Assembly: GCA_023898725.1 (NCBI GenBank)
Contig: CP060236.1
Coordinates: 807,086 to 871,085, forward strand
Reading direction: 5' to 3'
DNA: 64,000 nt
Source of the DNA: Alphaproteobacteria bacterium
GTDB lineage: Bacteria > Pseudomonadota > Alphaproteobacteria > JAUHZC01
Shown: positions 53,528 through 57,155 of the stretch, one piece after another
How positions within the stretch are numbered: position 1 is the stretch's first letter
Layout of the letters: each line of letters begins with the position of its first letter
Notes under the pieces: model-generated
What the model was told of the DNA's origin: nothing
The model's input: only the letters and a program-made list of their open reading frames with translations
The model's database searches: none
Program-made: the position numbers and the translations under genes

Positions 53528-54109
53528 ATGAAAAACACAACAATGATGGCCGCTGTTCTAACAGCAGCCCTGGGTGTCAACACCGTGACAGCAAGCTCAG
53601 GCTATATGGAATTGTATGCGGAAGCTTATTTAGCGCGCGCCACTCCAGCGGCCCGGATAGAAGTGGCTGCTAAGGTGCTTGATCAGGGTGATGAAGCGGC
53701 GGTTGATGCGGCTGTGACAACCATTCGCGCTAACCGCTATGGCGTGGTGGGAGCGGTGCCCCTTGGGAAAACGATCATTGATCAGGATGTCTTGGATTCC
53801 CTCACGGCCAAGGCGTATAGAGTCACAGATCTAGAGGCAGAAATGAAGGCCCTTAGAGTTCATAACACCCACTTGCGGAGGTTATTGCAGGCATTGGATG
53901 CCAGTGTTGGATCTGATGTTGACTTCAGTGTTGGATCTGATGTTGACTTCAGTGTTGATGCTGGCGGTTCTGTCAGCGCAGATGCGGGAAATCCTGGTGT
54001 GCGTGTTCGCCTGAGTGATGCTGAGTATGAAACTGATGATGACGCTGCTCAGGCCGCTAGAGGGGACTCTGGCGATACGGATGATTTTGCCATATCAAAA
54101 CCTGAGTAA
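53528..54109 (+). CDS. hypothetical secreted protein, 193 aa (tandem copy 1)
   Basis: Signal peptide (MKNTTMMAAVLTAALGVNTVTAS), a conserved N-domain and an acidic C-terminus with a VGSDVDFS x2 repeat. It is 100% identical to the copy at 54535. Confidence 0.6.
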   Translation: MKNTTMMAAVLTAALGVNTVTASSGYMELYAEAYLARATPAARIEVAAKVLDQGDEAAVDAAVTTIRANRYGVVGAVPLGKTIIDQDVLDSLTAKAYRVTDLEAEMKALRVHNTHLRRLLQALDASVGSDVDFSVGSDVDFSVDAGGSVSADAGNPGVRVRLSDAEYETDDDAAQAARGDSGDTDDFAISKPE

Positions 54110-54139
54110 TCCTCTTGATTAATCCTAAGAGTACTCCCC

Positions 54140-54182
54140 TGAGTAACTCTCCGGAGTAATGCTTAGTACGTGAGGTGCGTTA
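54140..54182 (+). repeat. shared 3'-flank element copy B
   Basis: Same 43-nt element, preceded by extra degenerate ~11-nt GAGTAATCCTC-like units. Confidence 0.7.
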
Positions 54183-54267
54183 AATATTTGCGCTGATTGG
54201 GTAATCGAATGACCTAACCAACGATATAACGGTATAGTGTGTCCAAATAGTGCATCTAATAATTCCC

Positions 54268-54303
54268 CCATAATCCCCAGAAAACTTTTTGTGGGGATTA
54301 TGG
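54268..54303. repeat. perfect 12-bp inverted repeat hairpin (ccataatcccca / tggggattatgg, 12-nt A/T loop)
   Basis: Seen directly in the sequence. A second copy lies at 55275..55310 within the duplicated unit. Confidence 0.6.
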
Positions 54304-54534
54304 TGCGTATATATTTTTACATACAGGATTCACAGGGCAATGAAACGAAAGCGTGGGGCAAAAAGTAACAAAGAACATGTGCTTCTATGCCACCGTCTGC
54401 CGCGTACGACCATTCGGGCAGCAGTGCATGCTCTTTTGTCATAAAATTCATTTAATATTGTGGCTTGCGCTTTGGTGATAGGGTTGTTAAAAAGACATTG
54501 ATAAAATTTTATTAAAAAACTGTAAGGAAAAGAA

Positions 54535-55116
54535 ATGAAAAACACAACAATGATGGCCGCTGTTCTAACAGCAGCCCTGGGTGTCAACACCGTGACAGCA
54601 AGCTCAGGCTATATGGAATTGTATGCGGAAGCTTATTTAGCGCGCGCCACTCCAGCGGCCCGGATAGAAGTGGCTGCTAAGGTGCTTGATCAGGGTGATG
54701 AAGCGGCGGTTGATGCGGCTGTGACAACCATTCGCGCTAACCGCTATGGCGTGGTGGGAGCGGTGCCCCTTGGGAAAACGATCATTGATCAGGATGTCTT
54801 GGATTCCCTCACGGCCAAGGCGTATAGAGTCACAGATCTAGAGGCAGAAATGAAGGCCCTTAGAGTTCATAACACCCACTTGCGGAGGTTATTGCAGGCA
54901 TTGGATGCCAGTGTTGGATCTGATGTTGACTTCAGTGTTGGATCTGATGTTGACTTCAGTGTTGATGCTGGCGGTTCTGTCAGCGCAGATGCGGGAAATC
55001 CTGGTGTGCGTGTTCGCCTGAGTGATGCTGAGTATGAAACTGATGATGACGCTGCTCAGGCCGCTAGAGGGGACTCTGGCGATACGGATGATTTTGCCAT
55101 ATCAAAACCTGAGTAA
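54535..55116 (+). CDS. hypothetical secreted protein, 193 aa (tandem copy 2, identical)
   Basis: Exact duplicate of 53528..54109, including the 425-bp downstream region. Confidence 0.6.
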   Translation: MKNTTMMAAVLTAALGVNTVTASSGYMELYAEAYLARATPAARIEVAAKVLDQGDEAAVDAAVTTIRANRYGVVGAVPLGKTIIDQDVLDSLTAKAYRVTDLEAEMKALRVHNTHLRRLLQALDASVGSDVDFSVGSDVDFSVDAGGSVSADAGNPGVRVRLSDAEYETDDDAAQAARGDSGDTDDFAISKPE

Positions 55117-55146
55117 TCCTCTTGATTAATCCTAAGAGTACTCCCC

Positions 55147-55189
55147 TGAGTAACTCTCCGGAGTAATGCTTAGTACGTGAGGTGCGTTA
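55147..55189 (+). repeat. shared 3'-flank element copy C
   Basis: Same element within the second 1007-bp unit. Confidence 0.7.
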
Positions 55190-55274
55190 AATATTTGCGC
55201 TGATTGGGTAATCGAATGACCTAACCAACGATATAACGGTATAGTGTGTCCAAATAGTGCATCTAATAATTCCC

Positions 55275-55310
55275 CCATAATCCCCAGAAAACTTTTTGTG
55301 GGGATTATGG
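55275..55310. repeat. second copy of the 12-bp inverted-repeat hairpin
   Basis: Identical to 54268..54303, offset by 1007 bp. Confidence 0.6.
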
Positions 55311-55541
55311 TGCGTATATATTTTTACATACAGGATTCACAGGGCAATGAAACGAAAGCGTGGGGCAAAAAGTAACAAAGAACATGTGCTTCTATGCCAC
55401 CGTCTGCCGCGTACGACCATTCGGGCAGCAGTGCATGCTCTTTTGTCATAAAATTCATTTAATATTGTGGCTTGCGCTTTGGTGATAGGGTTGTTAAAAA
55501 GACATTGATAAAATTTTATTAAAAAACTGTAAGGAAAAGAA

Positions 55542-57155
55542 ATGAAAAACACAACAATGATGGCCGCTGTTCTAACAGCAGCCCTGGGTGTCAACACCGT
55601 GACAGCAAGCTCAGGCTATATGGAATTGTATGCGGAAGCTTGTTTAGCGCGCGCCACTCCAGCGGCCCGGATAGAAGTGGCTGCTAAGATGCTTGATCAG
55701 GGTGATGAAGCGGCGGTTGATGCGGCTGTGACAACTATTCGCGCTAACCGCTATGGCATTTCGGGTGCAGGGGGACAGGTCATGCCCGCGGGTGTGCTGT
55801 CGGCGACTGATGTTCAGGCCGCCCAAGCTGACATTGGTGGTGGTGCTGATCTTGTGACGAATGCTGCGGCACTCCATCAACTCACTGGTGATGCAGATGC
55901 GACAACAGGTGTGACAGCCGCCCAAGCTGACATTGGTGGTGGTGCCGCTGATCTTGTGACCAATGCTGCTACTCTTCATCAACTTACTGGTGATGCAGAT
56001 GCAACAACGGGTGTGACAGCCGCCCAAGCTGACATTGGTGGTGGTGCCGCTGATCTCGTGGCGAATGCTGCTGCGCTTCATCAACTTACTGGTGATGCAG
56101 ATGCAACAACGGGCGTGACGACCGCTCAAGCTGATATTGGTGGTGGTGCCGCTGATCTTGTGACGAATGCTGCTGCGCTTCATCAACTTACTGGTGATGC
56201 AGATGCAACAACGGGCGTGACAGCCGCGCAAGCTGCAATTGGTGGTAGTGCTGATCTTGTGACGAATGCTGTTGCGCTTCAATCAGCCATTGATCCTGGT
56301 CAGGATGCAACAACTGGTGTGACAGCCGCCCAAGCTGACATTGGTGGTAGTGCCGCTGATCTTGTGGCGAATGCTGCTGCGCTTCATCAACTTACTGGTG
56401 ATGCAGACGCGACAACAGGTGTGACAGCCGCGCAAGCTGCAATTGGTGGCAGTGCTGATCTTGTGACGAATGCTGTTGCTCTTCAATCAGCCATTGATCC
56501 TGGTCAGGATGCAACAACTGGTCTTCAGGGTGTTAAAACAACACTAGGTGATATCGGTAGGGCTGTTTTTGCTCATTATCAAGCAGCAGATGCGACCGCT
56601 CAGAAAGCTTTGACTGATGCCGCTCAGGCTGCGCAGGCTGCTCAGGCCGCTCAGGACGCCTTGGCTATTGCCGATCAGGCCGCTCAGGACGCTCAGGCTC
56701 AGGCTGCTCAAGCCGCTCAGGCTGCTCAGGCTGCTCAGGCTGCTCTGGACAACTTCCAGGGAACTGTTGGAAGCAAAAAGTGGGGGACCCTAGGTAAAGC
56801 CGCTAAGGACGCTAAGGACGCTCAGGACGCTCAGGCTCAGGCTGCTCAGGCCGCTCAGGTTCAGGCCGCTCAGGCCGCTCAGGCCGCTCAGGTCGCTCAA
56901 GCCGCTCAGGCTCAGGCCGCTCAGGCTGCTCAGGACGCTCAGACCGATCTGGCGGAGGCACGTAATCGTATCCCACAACACCATCAGGCAAGTGTCATGG
57001 CTGGAAATGCGCCTTCCGGTATGAGTGCCATTGACGATCTTTCAGTGGTTTTGGCCGTGCTAAAGGCTTACAATCCTGATAGCCTGCCAATCGCTCCGGC
57101 TGCTAGCGCTAGCGACATTGTGGCAGCAATGCAGGCTCACAACATGATCGGATAA
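55542..57155 (+). CDS. hypothetical secreted repeat protein, 537 aa (same N-domain, then 34-aa and AQAAQ tandem repeats)
   Basis: The first ~70 aa are nearly identical to the 193-aa proteins (2 substitutions). Then come ~7 tandem 34-aa units (AQADIGGGAADLVTNAAALHQLTGDADATTGVTA), an AQAAQ/AQDAQ low-complexity block, and a unique C-terminus. Confidence 0.6.
   Translation: MKNTTMMAAVLTAALGVNTVTASSGYMELYAEACLARATPAARIEVAAKMLDQGDEAAVDAAVTTIRANRYGISGAGGQVMPAGVLSATDVQAAQADIGGGADLVTNAAALHQLTGDADATTGVTAAQADIGGGAADLVTNAATLHQLTGDADATTGVTAAQADIGGGAADLVANAAALHQLTGDADATTGVTTAQADIGGGAADLVTNAAALHQLTGDADATTGVTAAQAAIGGSADLVTNAVALQSAIDPGQDATTGVTAAQADIGGSAADLVANAAALHQLTGDADATTGVTAAQAAIGGSADLVTNAVALQSAIDPGQDATTGLQGVKTTLGDIGRAVFAHYQAADATAQKALTDAAQAAQAAQAAQDALAIADQAAQDAQAQAAQAAQAAQAAQAALDNFQGTVGSKKWGTLGKAAKDAKDAQDAQAQAAQAAQVQAAQAAQAAQVAQAAQAQAAQAAQDAQTDLAEARNRIPQHHQASVMAGNAPSGMSAIDDLSVVLAVLKAYNPDSLPIAPAASASDIVAAMQAHNMIG
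55821..56528 (+). repeat. in-frame 102-bp coding tandem repeats (~7 units) inside the 537-aa gene
   Basis: Reiterated gcccaagctgacattggtggtggtgccgctgatcttgtgac...gatgcagatgcaacaacgggtgtgaca units with sparse substitutions. Confidence 0.85.
56621..56945 (+). repeat. 15-bp (gctcaggcNgctcag) coding microsatellite-like repeats encoding AQAAQ
   Basis: Reiterated gctcaggc[t/c]gctcag[g/a] units. The opposite-strand ORFs in this region are artefacts. Confidence 0.8.

What the first reader, a model, noticed from the sequence alone, without database searches (positions are those of the whole stretch)
53528..55760. Exact 1007-bp tandem duplication (gene plus spacer), two identical copies and a third that diverges into a repeat-rich 537-aa protein
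53528-54534 and 54535-55541 are nucleotide-identical, including the 425-bp spacer, so there are two identical 193-aa ORFs. The third unit keeps the first ~210 bp with 2 nonsynonymous changes and then encodes a different protein. Identity this exact implies a very recent duplication or ongoing gene conversion. In a real genome such arrays expand and contract. In an assembly they may be collapsed or mis-counted.
Basis: seen in the sequence. Interest (0 to 1): 0.8.

Follow-up and report, generated by a model that had tools for sequence, protein, structure and literature searches.

The report
Tandem duplicated orphan secreted-protein gene
A 1,007-base gene-plus-spacer unit really is written twice, letter for letter, in this uncultured bacterium's genome. 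It is most likely an ordinary duplication by recombination between two neighbouring related genes, and the perfect identity says little because the assembly method writes repeat copies identically.

Summary
Window 53528-54534 and 54535-55541 are identical. Exact period-1007 identity runs 53526-55641. The first 216 nt of the next gene (537 aa) differ from the unit by three substitutions (Y34C, V50M, one synonymous), then homology ends.

The genes belong to a small family with no relative anywhere else in about 5.8 billion protein clusters, in an exhaustive HMMER search of 1.84 billion representatives, or in Pfam, NCBIfam, PHROGs and PDB sequences. Members have a signal-peptide-like N-terminus and a roughly 50-aa helical N-domain. 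They sit in a 7-kb cluster of repeat-rich predicted secreted proteins.

The source is almost certainly MAG HK-STAS-PROT-8, a circular 1.107-Mb alphaproteobacterium with no assigned order, from Hong Kong activated sludge.

The best explanation is unequal homologous recombination between the near-identical 5' ends of the adjacent 193-aa and 537-aa genes. That event creates no new junction sequence.

The genome was finished with Unicycler, which copies repeat sequence from a collapsed short-read graph. Exact identity is therefore expected from the method, and copy number rests only on long-read bridging.

The mechanism is ordinary, the protein family is unknown, and interest is modest.

The parts
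53528..54109 (+). p193 copy 1: 193-aa ORF. It has a signal-peptide-like N-terminus (MKNTTMMAAVLTAALGVNTVTA|SS), a helical N-domain to about residue 72-92, a long predicted helix, VGSDVDFS octapeptide repeats and an acidic tail.
   Evidence: ORF list. Annotated in NCBI as USO01231.1/USO01232.1, hypothetical protein. AGGA-type ribosome-binding motif upstream; mature protein about 17.9 kDa, pI 4.35. Helix layout comes from a low-confidence AlphaFold2 model.
54110..54534 (+). 425-nt spacer, copy 1, 39.5% GC. It holds the 81-nt conserved block, a hairpin and an AT-rich palindrome just upstream of the next ATG.
54535..55116 (+). p193 copy 2, identical to copy 1. Its upstream region is the spacer that also precedes the 537-aa gene, not the region upstream of copy 1.
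55117..55541 (+). 425-nt spacer, copy 2, identical to copy 1.
55542..57155 (+). p537: 537-aa family member. Its first 216 nt are 98.6% identical to p193. It continues with 34-aa repeats x6.6, AAQ runs and a C-terminus shared with p298.
55542..55757 (+). Partial third unit, which is also the right-hand homology tract. It is 216 nt long with 3 substitutions relative to the p193 5' end.
53526..53743 (+). Left-hand homology tract: the 5' end of p193 copy 1. Identity with the other units begins abruptly 2 nt before the ATG.
53324..53404 (+). 81-nt block directly after the stop codon of the upstream 291-aa gene. It is 91% identical to the blocks after each p193 stop, with a 45-nt exact core.
54130..54210 (+). 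The same 81-nt block after p193 copy 1. A third copy lies at 55137-55217.
54268..54303 (.). Hairpin in the spacer with 17-nt arms (CCATAATCCCCAGAAAA / TTTTGTGGGGATTATGG). It is repeated at 55275-55310, is absent from the shorter spacer upstream of copy 1, and may be a terminator.
   Evidence: The terminator role is inferred.
51307..52203 (+). p298: an older paralogue. It is 31.5% identical to p193 over residues 1-92, and shares the N-domain, an IDPxQDATTG motif and the C-terminus with p537.
52453..53328 (+). p291: neighbouring gene for a protein with a signal-peptide-like N-terminus. It has no protein similarity to the family, but its 3' flank shares the 81-nt block.
49852..51135 (+). p427: first gene of the cluster. 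It has a signal-peptide-like N-terminus and an internal 225-nt repeat x1.9.

Best explanation
This is a genuine head-to-tail duplication of one gene plus its downstream spacer, inside a lineage-restricted cluster of genes for predicted secreted, repeat-containing proteins.

Proposed origin:
- Before the event the order was upstream spacer, p193, 425-nt spacer, p537.
- p193 and p537 shared a near-identical 216-nt 5' segment that encodes the signal peptide and a small helical N-domain.
- Unequal homologous recombination between the p537 5' segment on one chromosome copy and the p193 5' segment on the sister copy inserted a second p193-plus-spacer unit of 1007 nt.
- The crossover lay within the first 102 nt of shared sequence, from position -2 to +100 relative to the ATG. 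This is why copy 2 carries the p193 alleles at all three variable sites.

Consequences:
- There are two identical genes for a roughly 18-kDa acidic secreted protein.
- The second copy sits behind the upstream region that also drives p537.
- The 1-kb perfect direct repeat can expand or collapse again by the same recombination.

What is shown: the anatomy, the homology tracts, the paralogue relationships and the absence of homologues. What is inferred: the recombination mechanism, secretion, the dosage effect and the instability.
For: - Units abut with no intervening sequence and are exact.
- The left end of identity falls 2 nt before the ATG of copy 1, where its different 199-nt upstream spacer begins. 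The right end is the p537 5' segment (216 nt, 98.6%), after which the sequences are unrelated. The duplicated segment is thus bounded by pre-existing direct homology, as unequal crossover requires.
- There are no terminal inverted repeats, no transposase and no other copy of the unit in the window.
- p298, p193 and p537 are true paralogues at the protein level: E = 1e-7 (p193 vs p298) and 1e-13 (p298 vs p537), with shared N-domain, central motif and C-terminus. The ORFs are therefore real genes, and p537's N-domain is native to it.
- GC by codon position resembles housekeeping genes in the window.
- Independent Illumina-only Logan contigs reproduce both flanks at 100% identity and stop where repeats begin.
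- The genome was closed with long-read bridging, which easily distinguishes a 1-kb length difference.
- RecA-dependent duplication and resolution between direct repeats is well documented, for example in PMC9946442.
Against: - No read data could be examined, so the copy number of two rests on the assembler's path choice.
- The short-read graph has the same topology with one, two or three copies, because the p193 and p537 5' ends already form a loop. Nothing in the sequence alone proves two.
- Exact identity is expected from Unicycler's graph-derived bridges, so recency is not established.
- No related genome exists for comparison, so neither the ancestral one-copy state nor instability has been observed.
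- The function of the protein is unknown, and the structure models are unreliable (pLDDT 47 and 39).
Confidence: 0.7

Rival explanations
1. Assembly artefact. The organism has one p193 copy (or a different number), and the hybrid assembler went round a graph loop once too often. Alternatively, two slightly different copies were written as identical because they share one collapsed graph node.
For: - The MAG was finished with Unicycler on binned metagenomic reads, and bridge sequence comes from the short-read graph.
- The p193 and p537 5' ends share 100 exact nt plus the spacer, so a loop exists in the graph whatever the copy number is.
- The organism made up only 0.028% of the community, so long-read support may be thin.
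- Illumina-only contigs break at the repeat boundaries and cannot count copies.
Against: - Unicycler chooses the graph path that best matches a long-read consensus of the gap. A 1007-nt length error, about 40% of the bridged distance, would be a gross mismatch.
- The assembler kept the three single-base differences in the third unit separate, so close variants were not blindly merged.
- The genome closed as one circular contig with 0% contamination.
Confidence: 0.15
2. An older duplication kept identical by continuing gene conversion (concerted evolution), rather than a recent event. The 98.6% identity between the p193 and p537 5' ends would be a conversion tract of the same process.
For: - p193 resembles p298 beyond residue 72 (alignment to residue 92), so p193 looks like an old family member.
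- Only its first 216 nt are nearly identical to p537, which is the pattern a conversion tract would leave.
Against: - Non-coding spacer and coding sequence are equally perfect across the whole 1007 nt. This is simpler to explain by a recent event or by the assembly method.
- A single genome cannot separate the two possibilities.
Confidence: 0.1
3. A programmed variation system. The array would be a contingency locus whose copy number, or whose shared 5' module, is used to vary the secreted or surface protein repertoire during interaction with a host.
For: - The locus is a run of six same-strand genes for signal-peptide-bearing, repeat-rich proteins, five of which gave no Pfam, NCBIfam or PHROGs hit.
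- The genome is small at 1.1 Mb.
- Several direct repeats could mediate rearrangement: the 216-nt 5' module, the 81-nt 3' block and the 1007-nt unit.
- Duplication-based bet-hedging is known in Burkholderia.
Against: - The copies are identical, full-length and have their own start sites. There is therefore no store of diverse silent cassettes and no single expression site.
- There is no simple-sequence tract in a position that could switch expression.
- No recombinase lies nearby.
- There are no population data.
Confidence: 0.05

Closest known systems
Tandem gene duplication and amplification by RecA-dependent unequal recombination between direct repeats (for example the IS-flanked 208.6-kb duplication in Burkholderia thailandensis, PMC9946442)
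   Same: Both are head-to-tail copies bounded by pre-existing direct homology. The product is itself a substrate for further expansion or collapse, and copy number is expected to vary within a population.
   Different: - Here the homology is 216 nt of two neighbouring paralogous genes, not IS elements.
- The unit is 1 kb with one gene, not 209 kb.
- RecA dependence, heterogeneity and any fitness effect are untested.
Tandem-repeat secreted proteins of obligate intracellular Alphaproteobacteria (Ehrlichia TRPs, Anaplasma surface proteins). This comparison comes from general knowledge and was not tested by homology.
   Same: Both are acidic proteins with internal tandem peptide repeats, encoded in small genomes, restricted to one lineage, and often found in clusters.
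   Different: - No sequence similarity to anything was found.
- The proteins here carry Sec-type signal-peptide-like N-termini, whereas Ehrlichia TRPs are reported as type I secretion substrates.
- The lifestyle of this organism is unknown.
Cassette-based antigenic variation (Anaplasma msp2/p44, Neisseria pilE/pilS, Borrelia vlsE). This comparison comes from general knowledge.
   Same: Both involve neighbouring related genes with a shared conserved end that can recombine.
   Different: The copies here are identical and complete, each with a ribosome-binding site and a start codon. There is no diverse silent repertoire and no single expression site.

Membership tests
Tandem duplication by unequal homologous recombination | Direct head-to-tail copies with no intervening or novel junction sequence | tested here: met
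   The units abut at 54534/54535 and 55541/55542. The period is exactly 1007.
Tandem duplication by unequal homologous recombination | Pre-existing direct homology at the two ends of the duplicated segment, long enough for homologous recombination | tested here: met
   The p193 and p537 5' ends share 216 nt at 98.6%, of which 102 nt are exact from -2 to +100. Identity starts and stops at these tracts.
Tandem duplication by unequal homologous recombination | Dependence on RecA, and reversible, variable copy number in the population | not testable with these tools
   No reads, strains or cultures are available. The rest of the genome is not in the window.
Mobile element or cassette insertion | Terminal inverted repeats, target-site duplication, transposase or integrase | tested here: not met
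   The only inverted repeats are the internal hairpin and an AT palindrome. The cluster proteins have no Pfam, NCBIfam or PHROGs hits. No further copies of the unit exist in the window.
Cassette-type antigenic variation locus | One expression site plus several divergent, silent or truncated donor copies | tested here: not met
   The two copies are identical, full-length and have their own ribosome-binding site and ATG. The family has only three distinct members in the protein collections.
Simple-sequence contingency (phase-variable) gene | Homopolymer or short-unit repeat in the promoter or 5' coding region that can shift frame or spacing | tested here: not met
   The only internal repeats are in-frame units of 24, 102 and 9 nt. 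The A-run before the ATG is at most 7 nt.
Any described protein family (Pfam, NCBIfam, PHROGs, PDB sequences) | Significant profile or sequence match | tested here: not met
   No hits for p193, p298 or p537 at E <= 0.01, apart from one negligible p537 match to an SMC model (E 0.0035, 15 bits against a cut-off of 567). The best PDB E-values are 0.45 and 0.098. Only self-hits were found in 5.8 billion clusters and 1.84 billion representatives.
Sec-secreted protein | N-terminal signal peptide with a positive n-region, a hydrophobic core and an AxA-type cleavage site | tested here: inconclusive
   The pattern is visible by eye in p193/p537 (K2, MMAAVLTAALGV, VTA|SS) and in p298, p291 and p427. No signal-peptide predictor was available.

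The most novel reading that the evidence does not exclude
The array is a copy-number-variable locus in an order-level-novel, small-genome (possibly host-dependent) alphaproteobacterium. In this reading a conserved 5' module (signal peptide plus a three-helix N-domain) and a conserved 3' flank block act as recombination handles. These handles would duplicate, delete and reshuffle different secreted C-terminal modules, giving a population a varying set of host-interaction proteins from an entirely undescribed protein family.
Probability: 0.1. Interest if true: 0.55.

Novelty: new member of a known kind. Interest (0 to 1): 0.27.

Why it matters
The mechanism, tandem duplication by recombination between neighbouring paralogues, is textbook. 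What is new is the cargo and the host.

The protein family has no detectable relative in any public collection. It sits in a cluster of predicted secreted, repeat-rich proteins in a closed 1.1-Mb genome of an alphaproteobacterium that could not be placed in any order. If copy number varies in the sludge population, the locus would mark which genes this organism is currently adapting, and that could be followed in the existing nine-year time series.

The case also carries a practical lesson. In graph-based hybrid assemblies, perfect identity between repeat copies follows from the method and should not be read as evidence of recency.

Tried and rejected
- **Homologue searches.** p193 and p298 against 5.8 billion clusters gave only self-hits. 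A family profile against 1.84 billion representatives gave only p193 and p298 themselves. Two JGI metagenome scans found nothing. Alignment A3 was too divergent to build search patterns.
- **Related genomes.** A scan of GTDB species representatives with the neighbouring TrhO gene gave a best identity of 53%, in Gammaproteobacteria. Neither this genome nor a close relative is there, so no synteny comparison was possible.
- **Placement.** The best non-self GltX match is 69%, then about 61% to Rhodospirillales-like taxa. This gives no finer placement.
- **Structure.** AlphaFold2 models of p193 and p298 had pLDDT 46.8 and 38.9. Fold searches were not run because matches to such models would be meaningless.
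- **RNA.** Rfam found only two tRNAs in the window. Folding the spacer gave z = -1.56, unremarkable apart from one hairpin.
- **Promoter and terminator scan.** The promoter count was not above chance and the spacer hairpin was not among the listed terminator-like sites.
- **Origin of the p193 C-terminal half.** No significant similarity to the neighbouring proteins.
- **Other look-ups.** An exact-protein look-up of p193 on contigs found nothing. A literature search for the SRA run found nothing.
- **Rejected ideas.** Mobile element, integron-like cassette, antigenic-variation cassette array and simple-sequence phase variation were all rejected (see the membership tests).
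Full report
**Observation**

Window 53528-54534 and 54535-55541 are letter-for-letter identical, 1007 nt each. The repeat finder and a self-BLAST give the same 1007-nt spacing.

The exact run begins at 53526, two bases before the first ATG. It makes 53526-55641 perfectly periodic.

The next 216 nt of the third unit (55542-55757) differ at three positions, not two. These are nt 101 (Y34C), nt 148 (V50M) and nt 195 (synonymous). From nt 217 onward there is no similarity.

Each full unit holds a 193-aa ORF and a 425-nt spacer. The third unit is the 5' end of a 537-aa ORF made largely of 34-aa repeats and AAQ runs. 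No comparable repeat occurs anywhere else in the 64 kb.

**Anatomy**

Upstream of copy 1 lies a different, shorter spacer of 199 nt. It shares with the 425-nt spacer only an 81-nt block placed directly after the preceding stop codon. That block is 91% identical, with a 45-nt exact core present three times.

The 425-nt spacer adds a hairpin with 17-nt arms (54268-54303) and an AT-rich palindrome about 20 nt before the ATG.

There are no terminal inverted repeats, no transposase and no Rfam match in the region.

**The genes**

p193, p537 and an upstream 298-aa protein (51307-52203) are paralogues.
- All three share the N-terminus, which has the pattern M-K/N..., a hydrophobic core and V-x-A|S, plus a helical domain ending in RYGxxG.
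- p298 and p537 also share an IDPxQDATTG motif and the C-terminal roughly 40 residues.
- p193 aligns with p298 to residue 92, beyond the point where it stops matching p537. p193 therefore looks like an old family member whose first 216 nt were later homogenised with p537.
- Its C-terminal half matches nothing nearby.

Codon-position GC resembles that of housekeeping genes in the window, and each gene has an AGGA-like motif upstream.

With two further signal-peptide-bearing genes (p427, p291) and an outer-membrane beta-barrel gene downstream, the locus is a 7-8-kb run of envelope or secreted proteins. Most of them contain internal tandem repeats.

**No relatives**
- Pfam, NCBIfam and PHROGs give nothing for the family.
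- PDB sequences give nothing.
- Word-indexed searches of about 5.8 billion clusters return only the query itself for p193 and p298.
- An exhaustive HMMER profile search of 1.84 billion representatives returns only those same two proteins.
- JGI metagenome scans are empty.
- AlphaFold2 models are unreliable, with pLDDT 47 and 39. They suggest only a three-helix N-domain, a long helix and a disordered acidic tail in p193. No fold search was attempted.

**Source**

The proteins are NCBI entries USO01228-USO01234 of a "MAG: Alphaproteobacteria bacterium" on a contig of 1,107,460 bp. That length, the GC content and the taxon match one entry in the supplement of Liu et al. 2021 (PMC8518188): HK-STAS-PROT-8.

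This entry has one circular contig, 998 CDS, 93.5% completeness and 0% contamination. It made up 0.028% of the Shatin activated-sludge community and is classified only to class Alphaproteobacteria.

The window's GltX is at most 69% identical to any other sequence. TrhO found nothing closer than 53% among GTDB species representatives. No comparative genome exists.

**Why the assembly method matters**

The MAG was produced by Flye, binning, and then two rounds of Unicycler hybrid assembly. Unicycler uses long reads only to choose a path through the short-read graph, and the bridge sequence itself comes from the graph (PMC5481147).

A repeat collapsed into one node is therefore emitted identically at each pass. 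Perfect identity of the two units is what the method produces and cannot be used to date the duplication.

The p193 and p537 5' ends share 100 exact bases preceded in two cases by the same spacer. The graph therefore contains the same loop whether there are one, two or three copies. The duplication creates no new junction sequence.

Copy number rests on the long-read consensus length, where a 1-kb error would be gross, and on read depth. I could inspect neither.

Independent Illumina-only Logan contigs from SRR12358676 match the flanks at 100% identity (window 50546-53362 and 56863-59654). They stop where repeats begin, one of them 30 nt into the 45-nt shared block, as expected for k = 31. They confirm the flanks but not the count.

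**Mechanism**

The duplicated segment is bounded on the left by the p193 5' tract and on the right by the near-identical p537 5' tract. Unequal homologous recombination between these tracts on sister chromosomes gives exactly the observed product. The reciprocal product would be a deletion of p193.

Copy 2 carries the p193 alleles at all three variable sites. This places the crossover in the first 102 shared bases. Alternatively, later conversion could have produced the same pattern.

After the event, copy 2 lies behind the upstream region that also precedes p537. The 1007-nt perfect repeat, the 216-nt tracts and the 81-nt blocks are all substrates for further gain or loss.

RecA-dependent formation and resolution of such duplications, with selectable effects, is documented elsewhere (PMC9946442). 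All of this is inference from anatomy.

**Verdict**

The feature is real in the deposited sequence and is probably real in the organism (about 0.7). The rivals are an assembly miscount or hidden copy differences (0.15), older duplication with conversion (0.1), and a programmed variation system (0.05).

It is a new instance of a familiar process, acting on an entirely uncharacterised, lineage-restricted family of predicted secreted proteins. Interest is modest. The read-level tests listed under next steps would settle copy number and heterogeneity quickly.

Noticed in passing
window 49852-57155: Six consecutive same-strand genes encode proteins with signal-peptide-like N-termini. Five gave no Pfam, NCBIfam or PHROGs hit. 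p291 and p537 gave only weak sub-threshold hits: Ribonuc_L-PSP at E 0.0098 and an SMC model at E 0.0035. Four of the five distinct proteins carry internal tandem repeats: 225-nt x1.9 at 50239-50667, 24-nt x2.3 exact at 53902-53957 and 54909-54964, 102-nt x6.6 at 55818-56485, and 9-nt AAQ runs at 56622-56946.
   Followed up: partly
window 53333-53377, 54139-54183, 55146-55190: A 45-nt block (CTGAGTAACTCTCCGGAGTAATGCTTAGTACGTGAGGTGCGTTAA) is exactly conserved just after the stop codons of p291 and both p193 copies, while the surrounding spacer differs. It contains the palindrome CTCCGGAG. It could be a 3' regulatory element or a relic of an older duplication.
   Followed up: partly
p427 residues 171 and 246, p291 residue 220, p193 residue 178: The tripeptide RGD occurs four times in the cluster, against five times in 14,323 residues of other window genes. 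Poisson P is about 0.004, or 0.024 if the p427 repeat is counted once. This is a post hoc observation in proteins rich in R, G and D.
   Followed up: partly
window 55542-57155: The exact 537-aa sequence is absent from the 15-billion-protein collection, although all its neighbours from the same NCBI record are present. It also did not appear as a hit to p193 or to the family profile. The number of its 102-nt and 9-nt repeats may be as uncertain as the copy number of the 1007-nt unit.
   Followed up: no
window 60485-63676, 16219-17739, 46282-47322 (-), 39978-40871: ORFs of 1063, 506, 346 and 297 aa have no Pfam match. The 1063-aa ORF shows a weak tblastn similarity to the neighbouring beta-barrel protein at 61655-61876.
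   Followed up: no
window 44401-45663 (-): A 420-aa ORF has a patatin-like phospholipase match just under the Pfam cut-off (26.6 vs 27.7 bits). From general knowledge, this protein type is often used by host-associated bacteria.
   Followed up: no
window 5557-8189, 17917-19113, 47482-48741 (-): There are four MFS transporters within 64 kb of a 1.1-Mb genome. The window also contains peptidoglycan, fatty-acid and TCA genes.
   Followed up: no
window 16145-16176: A 32-nt near-perfect palindrome lies just upstream of the 506-aa ORF that has no family match.
   Followed up: no
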